From NCBI GenBank assembly GCA_016214545.1, contig JACROH010000001.1, positions 32,149-96,148 of the forward strand: DNA of 64,000 bases. The letters are read 5' to 3'. The stretch comes from Candidatus Lloydbacteria bacterium (GTDB lineage: Bacteria; Patescibacteriota; Minisyncoccia; Phycocordibacterales; 21-14-all-47-15). Shown piece after piece: positions 20,507 through 52,498 of this stretch; the stretch's first letter is position 1, and each line of letters begins with the position of its first letter. The notes beneath the pieces are model-generated. The model had not been told where the DNA came from. It worked only from the letters and a program-made list of their open reading frames with translations, and ran no database searches. The position numbers were made by a program, and so were the translations under genes.

Positions 20507-20515
20507 TGTGGATAA
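20507..20515 (-). promoter_or_regulatory. Perfect DnaA-box 9-mer (TTATCCACA on the minus strand)
   Basis: The + strand reads TGTGGATAA. The site is in the comF/pilM divergent intergenic region, 37 nt upstream of the pilM -10. Confidence 0.6.
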
Positions 20516-20549
20516 GTCGGGTATGCACATAGTGTTGCCGATATATTAA

Positions 20550-20558
20550 TGGTATAAT
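20550..20558 (+). promoter_or_regulatory. Putative extended -10 (TGgTATAAT) for the pilus operon
   Basis: TGGTATAAT lies 77 nt upstream of the pilM ATG. Confidence 0.5.
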
Positions 20559-20635
20559 GTGAAAAGTGAAGAGTGTAGAGTGCAACACCGAACTTGTTTG
20601 CCGCTCTCGTTACGCTCCACTTACTATATTGATGT

Positions 20636-21862
20636 ATGGCTGTCAATTTTATCACAACACTGCTCGAAAAGATTCGTTCGTTACAGGGCGGGGAAAAGGG
20701 AGAAAGTGCCGTTGGGATTGACATAGGGTCCGCATTTATAAAAGTGGTGCAGATCAAGAGCAAGGGAGGGAAGGCGATACTTGAAACGTACGGAGAAATC
20801 GCACTCGGCCCGTACGCCGGCGGAGAAATCGGACAGGCGACCAATCTTCCGGCCGAAAAAATTGCAGAAGCGCTTACGGATTTGTTTCGCGAGGCGGGAG
20901 TTACCACTAAAAACGCAGCTCTTTCCATATCGTTAAAATCAAGCCTGCTCTCGCTCATCGAGGTCCCTGTTGCCGACGGGTCGTCGCAGCTGAACGAAAT
21001 AATCCCGATTGAAGCGCGCAAATATATTCCGGTTCCGATAAACGAAGTCACGCTTGATTGGTGGGTGATACCAAAACGCGAAACCTATGCCGAGCAAGAT
21101 GGCGTTTCCTCAGACGATGAGTCAAAAGGCGCCGAGTCTTCGCACAAAACAATCCCGCACGGATCGACTGAAGTCATGATGGTTGCGATTCACAACGAAG
21201 CCATAGAAAAGTATCGTCGTGTCGCAAGTATCATGCAGTTTGAAAAAGTGTTCTTTGAGCTTGAAGTATTTTCGGCAATGCGGTCGACTCTCGGACGGTC
21301 GATGCAAACGGTTCTTTTGGTTGATATCGGAGCGACAACGACCAAACTTGCAATTGCGGAATTCGGCGTTACTCGATTTACGCATACCATCAGCCGCGGT
21401 TCGCAAGATATAACGGTAGCTTTATCAAAAGCTCAGTCGGTAAGTTTCTCGGCGGCCGAAGACACGAAGCGGACATCAGGGGTTTCGGTGGGGGCTGAAA
21501 ACGGCGGCGGTATCAAGGGAACAGAAGGGTCTTCTGCTTCTGGGCAAAAAGAAATTACTGTTTCTCATATTGCCAATCTAACGCTTGAAAATATTTTTGG
21601 CGAAACAAACACGATGCTCATGCAGTATCAGCAAAAACATAATGTTTCTGTCGACTCGGTGGTTTTGATCGGCGGGGGCGCCCTTCTTAAGGGATTGCTC
21701 TCGGTGGCGAAGAAACACATAGATGCGGTAGTTGCGCTGGGAGACCCTTTCGAAAAAATCGAAGCTCCTGCATTTCTTTCGCCGATGCTCAAAGAAGCCG
21801 GTCCTGAGTTTGCGGTCGCGGTCGGATTGGCGCTTAGAAAAATACAAGAATCAGAGGCATAA
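20636..21862 (+). CDS. pilM: Type IV pilus assembly protein PilM
   Basis: Has an actin-like ATPase fold signature (VGIDIGS..IKVV; LVDIGATTT) and is first in the pilus cluster. Confidence 0.85.
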   Translation: MAVNFITTLLEKIRSLQGGEKGESAVGIDIGSAFIKVVQIKSKGGKAILETYGEIALGPYAGGEIGQATNLPAEKIAEALTDLFREAGVTTKNAALSISLKSSLLSLIEVPVADGSSQLNEIIPIEARKYIPVPINEVTLDWWVIPKRETYAEQDGVSSDDESKGAESSHKTIPHGSTEVMMVAIHNEAIEKYRRVASIMQFEKVFFELEVFSAMRSTLGRSMQTVLLVDIGATTTKLAIAEFGVTRFTHTISRGSQDITVALSKAQSVSFSAAEDTKRTSGVSVGAENGGGIKGTEGSSASGQKEITVSHIANLTLENIFGETNTMLMQYQQKHNVSVDSVVLIGGGALLKGLLSVAKKHIDAVVALGDPFEKIEAPAFLSPMLKEAGPEFAVAVGLALRKIQESEA

Positions 21863-21879
21863 ATTTATCAATCAAAGCT

Positions 21880-22476
21880 ATGGCATTTGAATCTCAAAAA
21901 ACATCTTTTATTCCAAAACAAGCAATGGCAAAAACGCCGGTGCCTGTACGGCGGACTTTTGCCGGCGGGGCAACGGTGGTCTCAATATTTATTGCCGTTA
22001 TGGCGATTGTTGTATATGCAGGGCTTTTTGTATATCAGTCTATTCTAAAAAATCAAATAGACGGGCTTGCCGCTTCGCTCGGTCGGGCAAGAGGAGCTTT
22101 TGAAACAAACCTTATTGCTGAATTGCAGACCGTCGATTCGCGGCTGATTACCGGCGATATGTTGCTGAAACAGCATCGCGCCCTGTCGCCGCTGTTTACC
22201 CTTCTTGAAGAGAGTACCGTGCAGACTATTCGATATAATAATTTTGCGCTAAAAGCGGAGAGCGGCGGCGTCTATAGCGTCACCTTGCGCGGAGAGGCGG
22301 ACGACTATGCTTCCATAGCGCTCCAATCGGATATTTTTTCCAAAAATAAATACATTCAAGATCATATTTTTTCGAATTTGACCTTAAACCAAGACGGTCG
22401 AGTTTCGTTTGATTTCAGTGCAAAAATAAACGCGGCCTTGCTTTTGTACGGGCAAGTGGTAACAACCCCCCGTTAA
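21880..22476 (+). CDS. PilN-like bitopic pilus alignment protein
   Basis: Has a short cytoplasmic N-terminus, a single TM, a coiled-coil and a periplasmic domain. It sits immediately after pilM. Confidence 0.5.
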   Translation: MAFESQKTSFIPKQAMAKTPVPVRRTFAGGATVVSIFIAVMAIVVYAGLFVYQSILKNQIDGLAASLGRARGAFETNLIAELQTVDSRLITGDMLLKQHRALSPLFTLLEESTVQTIRYNNFALKAESGGVYSVTLRGEADDYASIALQSDIFSKNKYIQDHIFSNLTLNQDGRVSFDFSAKINAALLLYGQVVTTPR

Positions 22477-22499
22477 CTAATTTTCTTTCATCATTATTT

Positions 22500-23039
22500 A
22501 TGAGATATTTTCTTCCAACTATTCTTATCGCAACAGCTATCGGGATGTTTTTCTTGCTTATTGACCCGCTGTATAAGGAGATAGGCGCGCTCCAGCAGCA
22601 ATCAGCCTCGTTTGACGCGGCGCTTGCAAAATCAAAAGAATTGCAGACCGTTCGTGACGACCTGCTGGCAAAGTACAATGCTTTTAGCACCACCGATCTC
22701 GACCGGCTCTCTCGAATGCTTCCCGACAACGTTGATAACGTTCGGCTTATTATGGACATCAACAATATTGCGGCACGATATAATATGTCTCTAAAAAATA
22801 CCAAGATTAATATTATCGATGAAGCAAAAAACGGAGCACTCGGTCCAAACAGGAAAAAATACGGAACGGTTCAGCTTGAGTTTTCGGTTGCCGGACCCTA
22901 CAGCGTCTTCTTGGCATTTCTTGAGGATTTGGAGAAGAGTCTCCGTATTGTCGACGTGGTCGGTTTGACGTTTTCGTCCGCAAGTAAAGATTTTTATGAC
23001 TATAATGTGGCGCTACAAACCTATTGGCTAAAACAATAA
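22500..23039 (+). CDS. PilO-like pilus alignment protein
   Basis: Has an N-terminal TM, a coiled-coil (LQQQSASFDAALAKSKELQ) and a ferredoxin-like C-terminal domain. Its operon position is consistent with PilO. Confidence 0.5.
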   Translation: MRYFLPTILIATAIGMFFLLIDPLYKEIGALQQQSASFDAALAKSKELQTVRDDLLAKYNAFSTTDLDRLSRMLPDNVDNVRLIMDINNIAARYNMSLKNTKINIIDEAKNGALGPNRKKYGTVQLEFSVAGPYSVFLAFLEDLEKSLRIVDVVGLTFSSASKDFYDYNVALQTYWLKQ

Positions 23040-51104: not shown

Positions 51105-51146
51105 TGTCGCGCTTGAAAACAACAATTTCATTGTGGACAAACCCTA

Positions 51147-51175
51147 TTGACTTTCATTTCCATTTTTGCTATGTT
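51147..51175 (+). promoter_or_regulatory. Sigma70-type promoter (TTGACT-N17-TATGTT with a TG extension)
   Basis: TTGACT at 51147-51152, a 17-nt spacer ending in TGc, and TATGTT at 51170-51175. Confidence 0.5.
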
Positions 51176-51181
51176 ATGGGA

Positions 51182-51258
51182 GTGAGTGTGTCCTTCATTG
51201 GAGACATTTCTCGAGCAATATCTGCATAAAACTCCGCTTCGGCGGAGTTTTATGTTTT
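51182..51258 (+). ncRNA. Candidate small RNA (about 75 nt)
   Basis: The region is bounded by the promoter above and a terminator (AAACTCCGC-TTCG-GCGGAGTTT + TATGTTTT, 51228-51258). It has an internal hairpin TGTGTCC-ttcatt-GGAGACA and no plausible ORF. Confidence 0.3.
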
Positions 51259-51382
51259 CTGATTGTGCGATATACTAAATACAATATATAAAACATCGGA
51301 TGTATACAGGTGCGGTCAGCCGCGCACTCACATAGATATTTGCTTTGGAGCTCGCTCCGGCTGACCACATCTGTATATAGCT

Positions 51383-52414
51383 ATGGATATCAAAGAGAAT
51401 GAAGCGATGGCTTTGCATACTACTTTTCGTATCGGCGGCCCTGCCCGTTATTTTTGCGAAGTCTCGAACGAAGCCGAATTAAAAGAGGCGCTTCTGTTCG
51501 CTGAAAAACAAGCGGTGCCGTTTTTTGTGTTGGGAGGCGGTTCAAACATTCTTGTATCCGATAAAGGTTTCCCCGGGCTAGTAATCAAAATGCGTTTACG
51601 GGGGAAAGAATATGCCGATGACGGTTCTTTTGCGCTGGTCATTGCGCAGGCGGGGGAATCATGGGATTCGTTTGTTGAGGACACGGTTACGCGGGGGCTT
51701 TGCGGCATTGAAAATCTTTCGGCTATCCCCGGGACGGTTGGAGCATCTCCGGTTCAGAATATCGGAGCGTATGGGCAAGAAGTGAAAGACACGATTGAGT
51801 GGGTTGAAGTGTTTGACCCGAGCACAAAAGAGATACGCCAGCTTTCAAACGCCGAATGTGCGTTTGCGTATCGGCAAAGTATTTTTAAAAAAAGAGAAAA
51901 CAAACAGCTGATCGTACTTCGGGTTGCCTTTCGGCTTTCGAACGATGCTCGTCCACATACGCGTTACCCGGGAGTCTCAGAGCATCTCTTGAAGAAAGGA
52001 ATTACCAATCCAAACGCCATGCACATGCGAGAAGCAATCATGTCCATTCGAATGAGCAAGCTCCCCGATATCCGTGAGACGGGTACGGCTGGTTCATTTT
52101 TCAAAAACCCGTTGTTGCCGAAAGAGCATAGCCATATTTTTAAAAATCTTTTTCCGGAAGCGCCGCTATACCCGCATACGGAAACGCATGATAAGGTTTC
52201 GGCCGCGTGGCTTATTAAAAAAATAGGCGGCGAAAAACGTTTTCGTCGGGGTGACGCGGCGGTATATGTGCGGCAGCCGCTCGTATTGGTTAATCACCGT
52301 AACGCAACGGCAAAAGATATGTTTAGTCTTGCGTGTGATATCCAATCACACATAAAAAAAGAAATCGGTATTGAGCTTTCGTTTGAGGTGGAAACGGTCG
52401 GCGAATTTTTGTAA
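51383..52414 (+). CDS. murB: UDP-N-acetylenolpyruvoylglucosamine reductase MurB
   Basis: Contains an FAD-binding PCMH domain (TTFRIGGPA..VLGGGSNIL) and a MurB C-terminal domain. Confidence 0.9.
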   Translation: MDIKENEAMALHTTFRIGGPARYFCEVSNEAELKEALLFAEKQAVPFFVLGGGSNILVSDKGFPGLVIKMRLRGKEYADDGSFALVIAQAGESWDSFVEDTVTRGLCGIENLSAIPGTVGASPVQNIGAYGQEVKDTIEWVEVFDPSTKEIRQLSNAECAFAYRQSIFKKRENKQLIVLRVAFRLSNDARPHTRYPGVSEHLLKKGITNPNAMHMREAIMSIRMSKLPDIRETGTAGSFFKNPLLPKEHSHIFKNLFPEAPLYPHTETHDKVSAAWLIKKIGGEKRFRRGDAAVYVRQPLVLVNHRNATAKDMFSLACDIQSHIKKEIGIELSFEVETVGEFL

Positions 52415-52489
52415 TTTCATAAGTTTCATAAAGAAATATTACGCAAGCGCGGCGCCGATTGCCCACGCGCGGATATTTTTCCGTAAAAG

Positions 52490-52498
52490 TTATCCACA
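52490..52498 (+). promoter_or_regulatory. Perfect DnaA-box 9-mer (TTATCCACA)
   Basis: The context AAGTTATCCACAG is the same extended context as the copy at 39030. It lies 125 nt upstream of the K-rich micro-ORF. Confidence 0.6.

What the first reader, a model, noticed from the sequence alone, without database searches (positions are those of the whole stretch)
20507..52498. Six perfect DnaA-box 9-mers (TTATCCACA), all intergenic and all upstream of pilus or envelope transcription units
I found perfect copies at six positions.

| Position | Strand | Location |
|---|---|---|
| 20507-20515 | - | comF/pilM divergent region |
| 28082-28090 | + | upstream of the pilin gene |
| 39030-39038 | + | upstream of the 1211-aa surface protein |
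| 43273-43281 | - | upstream of the TPR gene |
| 44166-44174 | + | upstream of the micro-ORF and LTD-protein unit |
| 52490-52498 | + | upstream of the K-rich micro-ORF and secA |

At uniform base composition, about 0.5 copies of a given 9-mer are expected on both strands of 64 kb (2 x 64000 / 262144). Roughly a tenth of the window is non-coding, yet all six copies are there.

The flanks extend the consensus to AAGTTATCCACA in four of the six copies.

One-mismatch copies occur at 43285-43293, in tandem 3 nt from a perfect box, and at 51132-51140, just upstream of the sRNA-candidate promoter. A two-mismatch copy lies at 37715-37723.

The boxes are kilobases apart rather than clustered, and no dnaA or dnaN is present, so this is not a typical oriC. 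Two readings remain. DnaA may act as a transcription factor linking envelope and pilus expression to the replication cycle. Alternatively, a different regulator may recognise the same sequence.

Caveat: I scanned by eye, so copies inside coding sequence may have been missed. I saw only mismatched ones, for example 58552-58560.
Basis: partly seen in the sequence, partly recalled or inferred. Interest (0 to 1): 0.6.

Follow-up and report, generated by a model that had tools for sequence, protein, structure and literature searches.

The report
DnaA-box sites beside Patescibacteria promoters
A 9-base sequence identical to the binding site of the replication initiator DnaA sits just upstream of at least seven promoters (pilus, surface-protein, a tiny basic protein, a small RNA) in this Candidatus Lloydbacteria (candidate phyla radiation) genome and is kept at the same promoters in distant relatives, which suggests, but does not prove, that DnaA doubles as a gene regulator there.

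Summary
There are six exact TTATCCACA copies, against 0.4 expected in the window and 0.07 expected in its 10% non-coding DNA (P about 2e-10). It is the most frequent intergenic 9-mer.

The window comes from a Candidatus Lloydbacteria MAG (Patescibacteria).

Each box lies 6-37 nt upstream of a sigma-70-type -35 or extended -10 element, in either orientation. Two one-mismatch boxes fit the same pattern: a tandem partner at 43285 and an inverted box at 51132 before a conserved small-RNA promoter.

The boxes persist at orthologous promoters while the surrounding DNA diverges:
- pilin promoter: 15 of 49 relatives, against about 1% expected
- pilM promoter: 12 of 40
- K-rich micro-ORF: 6 of 10
- sites 3-6 and the sRNA site in close Lloydbacteria relatives

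The substitutions tolerated at intergenic copies track the experimentally derived B. subtilis DnaA-box matrix (Spearman 0.70, p 5e-5). Coding copies do not (rho -0.04). Parcubacterial DnaA keeps the canonical DNA-reading residues, and canonical-type boxes lie between dnaA and dnaN.

Best reading (about 0.58): single high-affinity DnaA operators that regulate transcription. It is not an origin. The binding protein is unproven.

In close relatives some boxes abut REP-like hairpins next to a RAYT-like transposase gene, which is a complication.

The parts
20507..20515 (-). Box 1 (TTATCCACA), in the comF/pilM divergent region. It is inverted relative to the pilM promoter, whose extended -10 is TGgTATAAT (TG 20550-20551, hexamer 20553-20558). 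The box lies 37 nt upstream of that hexamer and 38 nt upstream of the comF ATG.
   Evidence: An exact box on the same strand is conserved within 150 nt of pilM in 6 of 40 relatives. Twelve of 40 have a box with at most one mismatch on either strand, against about 1% per strand (about 2% for the two strands) expected.
28082..28090 (+). Box 2. It lies 17 nt after the pilC stop and 6 nt upstream of the pilin promoter (TTGCTT 28097-28102, 17-nt spacer, TATACT 28120-28125). The pilin gene is at 28318-28773.
   Evidence: A + strand box with at most one mismatch lies within 150 nt of the pilC stop in 15 of 49 relatives. The - strand gives 2 of 49 and shuffles give 1.5%.
39030..39038 (+). Box 3. It lies 7 nt upstream of the promoter TTTGCA-17-TATAAT (39046-39074). 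That promoter starts a leader of about 440 nt, with a possible micro-ORF at 39080-39154, ahead of the 1211-aa surface protein gene (39523-43158).
   Evidence: AGTTATCCACA, TTTTGCAGGTT and TATAAT are invariant islands in the alignment with L166, L167 and L169 (A1).
43274..43293 (-). Tandem pair at site 4: exact box at 43274-43282 and TTTTCCACA at 43285-43293. They share one orientation and start 11 bp apart. The pair lies 10 nt upstream of the TPR-gene promoter (TTGCTT 43304-43309, TATGCT 43327-43332; TPR ATG at 43341) and is inverted relative to it.
   Evidence: The same pair (TGTGGATAActTGTGGAAAA) is present in L171. Variant pairs are present in L166 and L172, and a single variant box in L167. 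No intergenic counterpart in the more distant L169; its only nearby box lies inside the TPR coding sequence.
44166..44174 (+). Box 5. It lies 27 nt after the TPR stop and overlaps by 3 nt the terminator hairpin at 44172-44196. The extended -10 TGgTAAACT follows (TG 44206-44207, hexamer 44209-44214), then the 46-aa membrane micro-ORF (44227-44367), a 198-aa gene and the 1216-aa LTD protein.
   Evidence: The arrangement of box, hairpin, TGnTAAACT-type -10 (TGTTAAACT in L167) and micro-ORF is conserved in L166 and L172 (exact box) and in L167 and L171 (TTATCCCCA). In those relatives a RAYT-like gene lies between the TPR gene and this box.
51132..51140 (-). One-mismatch box (TTGTCCACA), inverted, 6 nt upstream of the promoter TTGACT-17-TATGTT (51147-51175). 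That promoter drives a small RNA of about 80 nt (about 51182-51262) that ends in the terminator at 51224-51255.
   Evidence: fold z = -5.5. The box is conserved as TTATCCACA in L166 and TTGTCCACA in L169. The sRNA is conserved, with compensatory changes in the terminator stem (A2).
52490..52498 (+). Box 6. It lies 16 nt (A-rich) upstream of the promoter TTGTTT (52515-52520), 17-nt spacer, GATAAT (52538-52543). That promoter drives the 29-aa K-rich micro-ORF at 52623-52712 (MKKKKKAAKKVSKKKKVSKKRKSSHKKKK), which is followed by its own terminator at 52757-52790. secA starts at 52839.
   Evidence: The same box / A-tract / -35 / -10 / K-rich ORF layout is present in L002, L004, L005, L006, L007, L166 and L169.
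37715..37723 (-). Candidate weak box (GTTTCCACA, two mismatches) in the divergent region between ftsK and the 303-aa HTH protein gene.
   Evidence: TTGTGGAAAC is conserved in L166 and TTGTGGAAAT in L169, within otherwise diverged DNA (A3). This is weak evidence only.
55682..55690 (-). Candidate one-mismatch box (TTATCCACT) in the 37-nt gap between the MazG-like and NUDIX genes.
   Evidence: Not tested for conservation.

Best explanation
These are single, high-affinity DnaA boxes used as transcriptional operators. The extended consensus is AGTTATCCACAg.

Each box sits at the upstream edge of a sigma-70-type promoter, 6-37 nt before the -35 hexamer or extended -10 element, in an orientation that is fixed for each promoter. 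The proposed mechanism is that the replication initiator DnaA binds each box as a monomer through its domain IV. At site 4 it would bind as a short oligomer on the 11-bp-phased pair. From that position it would modulate RNA polymerase at the adjacent promoter.

The effect would be to tie several products to the cell's initiation status:
- the major pilin
- the pilM-N-O / pilB-T-C operon
- a 1211-aa surface protein
- a TPR protein
- the micro-ORF / LTD-protein unit
- a histone-H1-like K-rich peptide
- a conserved small RNA

My guess is activation rather than repression, at about 60:40. The boxes flank the core promoter instead of overlapping it, and most -35 hexamers are imperfect.

What is shown: the enrichment, the intergenic restriction, the promoter-proximal geometry, the conservation at orthologous promoters, and a DnaA-like substitution profile.

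What is inferred: that DnaA is the binding protein, the sign of regulation, and the physiological logic.
For: 1. Enrichment and location. There are six exact copies against 0.4 expected. All six are in the 10% of the window that is non-coding, where 0.074 are expected (P = 2e-10). The motif is the top intergenic 9-mer. In 816 kb from close relatives, 26 exact copies are intergenic and 8 are coding, with 9% of the DNA intergenic.

2. Promoter geometry. Every window site is followed within 37 nt by a good -35/-10 pair or an extended -10. Across the 34 sites in relatives, the median of the better-of-two-directions promoter score is about 14.0. Random positions, scored in one direction, give a median of 11.9 and a 90th percentile of 13.7.

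3. Conservation at orthologous promoters while flanks diverge.
- Pilin promoter: 15 of 49, against 1.5% expected, and strand-specific.
- pilM promoter: 12 of 40.
- K-rich ORF promoter: 6 of 10 in the SecA loci, plus L166 and L169.
- Site 3 and the sRNA site appear as invariant islands in alignments A1 and A2.
- Sites 4 and 5 are conserved in Lloydbacteria relatives.

4. DnaA-like specificity. Counts of the 27 single-mismatch variants in intergenic DNA correlate with the substitution frequencies in 150 experimentally bound B. subtilis DnaA boxes (PMC4447404, Table S3). Spearman rho is 0.70, p = 4.6e-5, permutation p = 1e-4. The same variants in coding DNA give rho = -0.04. The correlation holds within A/T substitutions (0.75) and within G/C substitutions (0.52). 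Positions 4 and 8 never vary. Positions 3 and 5 vary most, and positions 1 and 9 also tolerate changes, much as in the consensus TTWTNCACA that I recall for E. coli DnaA boxes.

5. Motif shape. It is asymmetric and 11-12 nt long, with no dyad and no longer repeat. A is at -2 in 20 of 30 sites and G at -1 in 16 of 30. The 12-mers AGTTATCCACAG and TGTTATCCACAG occur about 125 bp apart between mnmG and mioC on the E. coli chromosome. Naming them oriC boxes R4 and R1 rests on my own knowledge.

6. The protein exists in canonical form. Parcubacterial DnaA carries Bac_DnaA_C and the RPRQ...GGRDHTTV base-contact motif, identical to E. coli. The dnaA-dnaN spacers of Parcubacteria relatives hold canonical-type boxes: an exact box plus two one-mismatch boxes in L164 and L165, two one-mismatch boxes in L157, and only one within one mismatch in L161.

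7. Precedent. DnaA binds single boxes in vitro (PMC4447404). It is an established activator and repressor in E. coli, B. subtilis and Caulobacter (PMC8203912).
Against: - No binding or expression data exist. Identity with the DnaA consensus does not exclude another protein.
- The dnaA gene and oriC of this genome, and of its closest relatives, could not be retrieved. The oriC evidence comes from a different Parcubacteria lineage (Zambryskibacteria-like, PilB 39% identical), and that lineage shows few promoter-type boxes.
- The target genes (pili, surface proteins) are unlike the classical DnaA regulons (dnaA, nrd, sda).
- Classical DnaA transcriptional targets in B. subtilis usually carry clusters of boxes, not single boxes.
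- The loci sampled were chosen around secA and pilB. The counts are therefore not genome-wide, and orthologous sites are not independent observations. The variant counts behind the matrix correlation are small (0-4 per variant).
- In close relatives several boxes are fused to REP-like hairpins with an identical junction. In L167 all three hairpin-linked copies share the same variant (TTATCCCCA). For those copies this suggests copying as a unit rather than independent selection.
Confidence: 0.58

Rival explanations
1. The boxes are a real promoter-proximal operator, but they are bound by a different, lineage-specific transcription factor whose site happens to coincide with the DnaA consensus. 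One candidate is the conserved 271-303-aa protein with a C-terminal winged HTH, encoded at 37814-38725 next to site 3.
For: - The targets form a coherent cell-surface and pilus set, unlike known DnaA regulons.
- The boxes are single.
- Zambryskibacteria-like relatives have DnaA but few such promoter boxes.
- An HTH protein is conserved beside site 3 in L166, L167 and L169.
Against: - The tolerated substitutions match the experimental DnaA matrix position by position. An unrelated protein would not be expected to show this.
- The motif is asymmetric and monomer-sized, whereas HTH regulators typically read dyads or repeats.
- The HTH hits are far below family cut-offs.
- Any such protein would compete with DnaA, which should bind these perfect boxes anyway.
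Confidence: 0.25
2. DnaA does bind the boxes, but their role is in replication control rather than transcription. They would be dispersed titration or reservoir sites, functionally like datA or the B. subtilis DnaA-box clusters, and happen to lie in intergenic DNA.
For: Perfect boxes are high-affinity sites. DnaA-box clusters outside oriC that bind DnaA are known in B. subtilis (PMC4447404 and PMC8203912).
Against: - Titration does not explain the constant placement just upstream of a -35 or -10 element.
- It does not explain the promoter-specific conserved orientation. The pilin site has 15 boxes on the + strand and 2 on the - strand.
- It does not explain retention at the same promoters across deep divergence.
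- Known titration loci are clusters, and here only one pair exists.
Confidence: 0.07
3. The 9-mer is part of a REP-like repeat family mobilised by a RAYT-type Y1 transposase. Its copies are products of element spread, not regulatory sites.
For: - In L166, L167, L171 and L172 a Y1_Tnp gene lies between the TPR gene and the micro-ORF. Its best NCBIfam hit is REP-associated tyrosine transposase, at 42-50 bits for the L166 and L167 copies (the two tested).
- That gene is flanked by palindromes that are homogenised within each genome.
- Several palindromes abut a box with an identical junction (AGTTATCCACA|ACGAAGG...).
- A 69-nt hairpin-box-box-hairpin unit is duplicated at 97% identity in L166.
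- All three hairpin-linked boxes in L167 share the variant TTATCCCCA.
- Window box 5 overlaps the one remaining hairpin.
Against: - Only one of the eight box copies at the seven window sites has the hairpin.
- There is no sequence similarity beyond AG + 9-mer among 30 sites.
- Solitary boxes are conserved at orthologous promoters in relatives down to 34% PilC identity. L081 and L002, the two that were scanned, lack these hairpins.
- Hairpins also occur without boxes.
- No RAYT-like gene occupies the corresponding TPR/micro-ORF gap in the window; I did not search the rest of the window with the RAYT protein.
- REP families are normally species-specific, not conserved at fixed promoters.
Confidence: 0.05
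4. The motif is a promoter element read by RNA polymerase itself: a lineage-specific UP-like element or an alternative-sigma -35 element.
For: It always lies next to promoters. An A-tract lies between the box and the -35 at the K-rich promoters.
Against: - The distance to the -35 varies from 0 to about 30 nt, and the box works in both orientations.
- Only 7 of the 27 intergenic regions of at least 60 nt carry it.
- No conserved partner element lies at a fixed distance.
Confidence: 0.03

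Closest known systems
DnaA as a transcription factor in Bacillus subtilis (dnaA, sda, ywlC, yydA, vpr and trmE targets; DnaA-box clusters) and E. coli (dnaA, nrdAB, mioC, rpoH)
   Same: The 9-mer consensus and the tolerated substitutions are the same. The boxes are in promoter regions, and DnaA acts there as activator or repressor (PMC8203912, PMC4447404).
   Different: Here the boxes are single, apart from one pair, and perfect. 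They sit at the upstream edge of the promoter. They control pilus, surface-protein, nucleoid-protein-like and sRNA genes rather than replication, repair or sporulation genes. They recur about once per 10 kb in the window. The phylum (Patescibacteria) is new for this behaviour.
Caulobacter cell-cycle regulators: the DnaA regulon (gcrA, ftsZ, podJ) and CtrA control of the pilin gene pilA
   Same: A replication or cell-cycle master regulator binds next to the -35 of surface-structure genes, including the pilin gene, and so ties pilus synthesis to the cell cycle (PMC8203912; PMC11264516, abstract seen).
   Different: In Caulobacter the pilin promoter is read by CtrA (TTAA-N7-TTAA), not by DnaA. 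No CtrA-type site is involved here.
oriC, datA, DARS and B. subtilis DnaA-box clusters
   Same: They use the same box sequence, including the flanks seen in the E. coli 12-mers I assign to R1 and R4.
   Different: There is no clustering, no DUE and no dnaA or dnaN. The GC skew has no turn, and the boxes are kilobases apart.
REP elements with their RAYT (REP-associated tyrosine transposase)
   Same: In the closest relatives a Y1 transposase gene is flanked by inverted copies of a short palindrome that is also scattered in nearby intergenic regions.
   Different: The conserved sequence next to some palindromes is a DnaA box rather than GTAG. Most boxes have no palindrome. The window has one relic hairpin, and no RAYT-like gene at the corresponding position.

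Membership tests
DnaA box / DnaA-regulated promoter | A 9-mer matching the DnaA-box consensus TTATNCACA | tested here: met
   There are six exact TTATCCACA copies, plus TTTTCCACA and TTGTCCACA at promoter-proximal positions.
DnaA box / DnaA-regulated promoter | Position-specific tolerance to substitution like that of experimentally bound DnaA boxes | tested here: met
   Intergenic variant counts against the B. subtilis matrix give Spearman 0.70, p 4.6e-5. Coding variants give -0.04. The counts are small and the sites are not phylogenetically independent.
DnaA box / DnaA-regulated promoter | The organism encodes a DnaA with a canonical DNA-binding domain IV | tested here: inconclusive
   This is met in Parcubacteria relatives, which carry Bac_DnaA_C and an RPRQ...GGRDHTTV motif identical to E. 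coli. The dnaA gene of this genome lies outside the window and could not be fetched.
DnaA box / DnaA-regulated promoter | The lineage's own oriC is built from the same box | tested here: inconclusive
   The dnaA-dnaN spacers of L164 and L165 carry an exact box plus two one-mismatch boxes, L157 carries two one-mismatch boxes, and L161 carries one plus weaker look-alikes. These loci belong to a different Parcubacteria lineage.
DnaA box / DnaA-regulated promoter | Physical binding by DnaA and DnaA-dependent change in transcription | not testable with these tools
   This needs EMSA, footprinting, DAP-seq or reporter assays.
Replication origin or DnaA-box cluster (oriC, datA, DARS, DBC) | Several boxes within a few hundred bp, with a DUE and usually dnaA or dnaN nearby | tested here: not met
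   The boxes are 0.9-11 kb apart, with one pair only. There is no DnaA homologue in the window. The cumulative GC skew rises monotonically apart from one 4-kb dip, with no sustained turn.
REP / RAYT repeat family | An imperfect palindrome with a fixed adjacent motif, in many intergenic copies, with a RAYT gene flanked by inverted copies | tested here: not met
   In the window, one hairpin only (44172-44196) lies next to one of the eight box copies, and no Y1 transposase gene occupies the corresponding TPR/micro-ORF gap. The feature is met in relatives L166, L167, L171 and L172 for a subset of boxes.
Core promoter or UP-type element read by RNA polymerase | Fixed distance and orientation relative to the -35 and -10 elements, and presence at most promoters | tested here: not met
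   The distance is 0-30 nt and both orientations occur. The motif is present in 7 of the 27 intergenic regions of at least 60 nt.
DNA uptake sequence (DUS/USS) | A very high genome density (about one per kb), including coding DNA | tested here: not met
   The density is one per about 10 kb, with none in the window's coding DNA.

The most novel reading that the evidence does not exclude
In a large branch of Patescibacteria, which have very few transcription factors, DnaA is a principal global regulator. On this reading, dozens of single perfect boxes per genome of about 1 Mb couple the host-attachment apparatus to replication-initiation status. That apparatus includes the type IV pilin, the pilus assembly operon and the giant surface proteins, together with a histone-H1-like peptide and a conserved sRNA. 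In addition, REP/RAYT-type elements in Lloydbacteria carry or target DnaA boxes and so move DnaA-responsive promoter or terminator modules around the genome.
Probability: 0.2. Interest if true: 0.8.

Novelty: new member of a known kind. Interest (0 to 1): 0.6.

Why it matters
Patescibacteria make up a large share of bacterial diversity. Their cultivated members, mostly Saccharibacteria, live as epibionts (PMC10633639). In the tractable Saccharibacterium Southlakia epibionticum, type IV pili are essential for epibiotic growth (PMC10633639). Almost nothing is known about how these bacteria regulate genes.

This finding gives a concrete, conserved cis-element at the pilin, pilus-operon, surface-protein and sRNA promoters, together with a named candidate regulator present in every bacterium. 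That makes a testable hypothesis: a single recombinant protein and a few oligonucleotides would decide it.

If DnaA is the binding protein, it would show a replication initiator taking over a broad regulatory role in a minimal genome. It would link the cell cycle to host attachment, much as CtrA controls pilA in Caulobacter.

If DnaA is not the binding protein, the element still defines a regulon and a bait for finding a new regulator.

Tried and rejected
- Origin of replication: rejected. There is no cluster, no dnaA or dnaN, and no turn in GC skew.

- Chance or base composition: rejected.

- Longer repeat or MITE: rejected for the window. There is no similarity beyond AG + 9-mer.

- Alternative-sigma -35 element with a fixed -10 partner: rejected. 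No conserved partner exists and the spacing is variable.

- DNA uptake sequence, or KOPS/Chi-type strand-biased words: rejected on density, intergenic restriction and mixed strands.

- Known RNA families around the sites: none reach their thresholds. The sub-threshold hits lie over terminator hairpins.

- Retrieving this genome beyond the window failed. Exact-product look-ups for SecA, PilB, the 467-aa protein at the right edge, and even the 100%-identical TPR protein P0121 all returned nothing. A genome-wide count and this genome's own oriC are therefore missing.

- A tblastn search with E. coli DnaA found no dnaA in the window or in any close locus, only in L157.

- In the first two sets of loci, orthologues of the 1211-aa, TPR and LTD genes were absent. 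A protein search with the TPR protein then gave the close syntenic relatives.

- Literature searches for the motif in Patescibacteria, or for DnaA boxes at pilin genes, found nothing relevant.

- The idea that the boxes couple DNA-uptake pili to nucleotide supply was weakened. Tn-seq in Saccharibacteria showed that the com genes are dispensable for growth while the pili are essential (PMC10633639).

- The box at L169:10087 turned out to lie inside the TPR coding sequence and was not counted as conservation of site 4.

Full report
**Observation**

A pattern search finds exactly six TTATCCACA copies in the window, at 20507(-), 28082(+), 39030(+), 43274(-), 44166(+) and 52490(+). Dinucleotide-preserving shuffles give a mean of 0.40, and none of 100 reaches six.

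I built a gene map from the long ORFs and checked it with Pfam. On that map about 10% of the window is non-coding, and all six copies lie there. Intergenic base composition predicts 0.074 copies, so Poisson P is 2e-10. The maximum over 5000 shuffles is 2. The motif is the most frequent intergenic 9-mer, with six of six copies intergenic.

- The fourth box starts at 43274.
- The AAG flank occurs three times, not four.
- The tandem partner at 43285 is 2 nt away, so the boxes start 11 bp apart.
- The coding near-match is at 58553.

**Source organism**

SecA and PilB searches place the window in Patescibacteria. The TPR protein at 43341-44138 is 100% identical to MBI5004636.1 (locus tag HZC04_00405). 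That protein belongs to a Candidatus Lloydbacteria MAG and lies on a contig of 270,910 bp.

The window also carries:
- FtsH, a MacAB-like transporter, RecG, pyruvate:ferredoxin oxidoreductase and mannoside phosphorylases
- a complete type IV pilus cluster
- LigA, RecA, FtsK, MurB and SecA
- large surface proteins

**Anatomy of the sites**

Each box lies at the upstream edge of a sigma-70-type promoter.

| Site | Box | Adjacent promoter | Downstream product |
|---|---|---|---|
| 1 | 20507(-), inverted | 37 nt before the pilM extended -10 TGgTATAAT; also 38 nt before the comF ATG | pilM operon |
| 2 | 28082(+) | 6 nt before TTGCTT-17-TATACT | pilin |
| 3 | 39030(+) | 7 nt before TTTGCA-17-TATAAT | 440-nt leader, then the 1211-aa surface protein |
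| 4 | 43274(-) exact plus 43285(-) TTTTCCACA, inverted | 10 nt before TTGCTT-17-TATGCT | TPR gene |
| 5 | 44166(+) | overlaps by 3 nt the TPR terminator hairpin; followed by TGgTAAACT | 46-aa membrane micro-ORF, then the LTD-protein unit |
| 6 | 52490(+) | 16 A-rich nt before TTGTTT-17-GATAAT | 29-aa K-rich ORF with its own terminator, then secA |

A further one-mismatch box, TTGTCCACA at 51132(-), lies 6 nt before TTGACT-17-TATGTT. That promoter drives an RNA of about 80 nt that ends in a terminator. Its fold has z = -5.5 against shuffles.

In total 7 of the 27 intergenic regions of at least 60 nt carry a box. The motif is therefore not a general promoter element.

**Conservation**

Around secA, an exact + strand box stands 117-165 nt before a small K/R-rich ORF in L002, L004, L005, L006 and L007. 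These loci range from 38% to 60% GC and share 61-71% SecA identity with the window. All have the same layout of box, A-rich spacer, TTGTnn, 17 nt and GATAAT.

Around the pilus cluster, 15 of the 49 loci that have a PilC orthologue carry a + strand box with at most one mismatch within 150 nt of the pilC stop. The - strand gives 2 of 49 and shuffles give 1.5%. The association reaches relatives with only 34-39% PilC identity.

Upstream of pilM, 6 of 40 loci have an exact box on the same strand as the window. Twelve of 40 have a box with at most one mismatch on either strand, against about 1% per strand expected.

Close syntenic relatives were found through the TPR protein: L166, L167/L168, L169/L170, L171 and L172. 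They give the following results.
- Site 3 appears as three invariant islands (AGTTATCCACA, TTTTGCAGGTT, TATAAT) in otherwise diverging DNA (A1).
- The inverted box, -35 element, sRNA body and terminator of the small RNA are conserved, with compensatory changes in the terminator stem (A2).
- Site 6 is exact in L166 and L169.
- The site-4 pair is identical in L171 and variant in L166, L167 and L172. It has no intergenic counterpart in L169, where the nearby box is coding.
- The site-5 module is conserved in L166, L167, L171 and L172.

Across 816 kb of close relatives, 26 exact boxes are intergenic and 8 are coding, with 9% of the DNA intergenic.

**What reads the box**

Thirty intergenic sites share nothing beyond A at -2 (20 of 30), G at -1 (16 of 30) and a weak G at +1. 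There is no dyad symmetry and no longer repeat. The extended form AGTTATCCACAG, and TGTTATCCACAG, occur about 125 bp apart between mnmG and mioC on the E. coli chromosome. Naming them the oriC boxes R4 and R1 rests on my own knowledge.

The most discriminating test used the 27 single-mismatch variants. I counted each in intergenic and in coding DNA of the close relatives. I then compared the counts with the base frequencies of 150 B. subtilis DnaA boxes shown to bind DnaA in vitro (Smith and Grossman 2015, PMC4447404, Table S3).
- Intergenic counts correlate with those frequencies: Spearman 0.70, p = 4.6e-5, permutation p = 1e-4.
- Coding counts do not: rho = -0.04.
- The correlation holds within A/T substitutions (0.75) and within G/C substitutions (0.52).
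- Positions 4 and 8 never vary. Positions 3 (to G or T), 5 (any base), 1 (to A), 6 (to A) and 9 (to T) vary, as in the DnaA matrix.

Parcubacterial DnaA proteins carry Bac_DnaA_C and the RPRQ...GGRDHTTV base-contact motif, identical to E. coli. Their dnaA-dnaN spacers hold canonical-type boxes: an exact box plus two one-mismatch boxes in L164 and L165, two one-mismatch boxes in L157, and one in L161. Those loci belong to another Parcubacteria lineage. I could not reach the dnaA region of this genome.

**Mechanism proposed**

DnaA binds these perfect boxes through domain IV. It would bind as a monomer at most sites and cooperatively on the 11-bp-phased pair at site 4. From the -40 to -65 region it would modulate RNA polymerase.

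The following parts are inference:
- that the binding protein is DnaA;
- that the sign is activation, which I favour slightly because the boxes flank the core promoter rather than overlap it and most -35 hexamers are imperfect;
- that the purpose is to tie pilus, surface-protein, K-rich-peptide and sRNA synthesis to initiation status.

Established DnaA regulons in E. coli, B. subtilis and Caulobacter provide the precedent (PMC8203912). So does CtrA control of pilA in Caulobacter (PMC11264516, abstract seen). Type IV pili are essential for epibiotic growth in Saccharibacteria, whereas the com genes are not (PMC10633639). A link to host attachment is therefore more plausible than a link to nucleotide scavenging.

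**Complication**

In L166, L167, L171 and L172 a Y1 transposase gene lies between the TPR gene and the micro-ORF. Its best NCBIfam match, tested for the L166 and L167 copies, is REP-associated tyrosine transposase, at 42-50 bits against a cut-off of 80. The gene is flanked by short palindromes, for example TTACAAAGG-TTCCT-CCTTTGTAA in L166. These are homogenised within each genome and differ between genomes.

Several palindromes abut a box with an identical junction. A 69-nt hairpin-box-box-hairpin unit is duplicated at 97% identity in L166. In L167 all three hairpin-linked boxes share the variant TTATCCCCA. For those copies, copying as a unit is likely.

In the window the transposase gene is absent from that position and one hairpin remains, at site 5, where it serves as the TPR terminator. 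Most boxes, and all the deeply conserved ones, lack hairpins. I therefore treat this as REP-like elements sitting next to, carrying or targeting boxes. I do not treat it as the explanation of the boxes.

**Verdict**

The element is real, functional and conserved. Filing it as a DnaA-box operator rests on sequence specificity and precedent, not on binding data, and I put that reading at about 0.58. I found no literature describing it.

It is a new member of a known kind, the DnaA-regulated promoters, in a phylum where gene regulation is essentially uncharted. A handful of in vitro experiments would test it directly.

Noticed in passing
L166:9906-9977, 10823-10894, 11083-11112, 11586-11649, 16225-16279; L167:8845-8872, 9766-9828, 10012-10030, 10547-10574, 10769-10787; window 44172-44196: REP-like palindromes occur in many copies around a RAYT-like Y1 transposase gene (L166:10925-11608, L167:9861-10529, L171:2699-3367, L172:2791-3477). 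An example is TTACAAAGG-N5-CCTTTGTAA in L166. The stems are homogenised within each genome and differ between genomes. Several copies abut DnaA-type boxes with an identical junction. The window keeps one relic hairpin, and no transposase gene lies at the corresponding position.
   Followed up: partly
window 51147-51262: A conserved small RNA of about 80 nt. It has the promoter TTGACT-17-TATGTT, a 5' stem-loop, a conserved AAUAUCUGC stretch and an intrinsic terminator with compensatory changes in L166 and L169. It matches no Rfam family. It lies between the Wzy_C/TPR protein gene and murB.
   Followed up: partly
window 52623-52712; L001:241-585, L002:9835, L004:4834-5145, L005:825, L006:5546, L007:9816, L011:9092, L017:9277: A small, extremely basic ORF (25-114 aa, made of AKKRK-type repeats) is conserved just upstream of secA in many Patescibacteria. 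It has its own promoter and terminator. The longest copy gives a sub-threshold match to histone H1-like nucleoprotein HC2. It is probably a nucleoid-associated or ribosome-associated peptide.
   Followed up: partly
window 39080-39154 and the 440-nt leader 39081-39522: The box-3 promoter starts about 440 nt before the 1211-aa gene. The first 70 nt are conserved in L166 and L167 and could encode a micro-peptide (M-M/T-AKSFLRIFQ...). A second promoter-like site (39432-39460) and a weak hairpin (39396-39411) lie further downstream. This could be a leader or a separate RNA.
   Followed up: no
window 7640-7713 (-): A tRNA-Ile gene with anticodon TAT (UAU). This is an unusual way to read AUA in bacteria, which normally use a lysidine-modified CAU tRNA.
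   Followed up: no
L060:8780-9117, L058:5385-5402, L050:2150-2181, L073:8767-8802: In several Bacillota loci (Peptococcaceae, Desulfosporosinus and others), tight clusters of perfect DnaA boxes lie in intergenic DNA within a few kb upstream of secA. Some boxes directly abut each other. These are classical cluster-type DnaA sites and contrast with the single boxes of the Patescibacteria.
   Followed up: no
window 37814-38725; L166:4434-5249, L167:3394-4293, L169:4729-5568: A conserved protein of 271-303 aa lies between ftsK and the 1211-aa surface protein gene. It has only a weak C-terminal winged-HTH signal (DeoR/Csa3-like, far below cut-offs). Its start region TTATATATAATGGACAT is invariant across relatives. 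It is a possible local regulator.
   Followed up: partly
L161:1392-8770, L164:1766-8697 (next to rnpA/yidC/dnaA): In Zambryskibacteria-like genomes a type IV secretion gene set (PrgI-like, TraC-like, VirB4/TraG-like ATPase, T4SS pilin) lies directly beside the dnaA-dnaN origin region. This agrees with PMC12102498.
   Followed up: no
window 28050-28064 and 44124-44138: PilC and the TPR protein both end in ...SGL-stop, encoded by nearly the same DNA (CTCGGGYCTATAAA), shortly before boxes 2 and 5. This is probably coincidence and was not examined.
   Followed up: no
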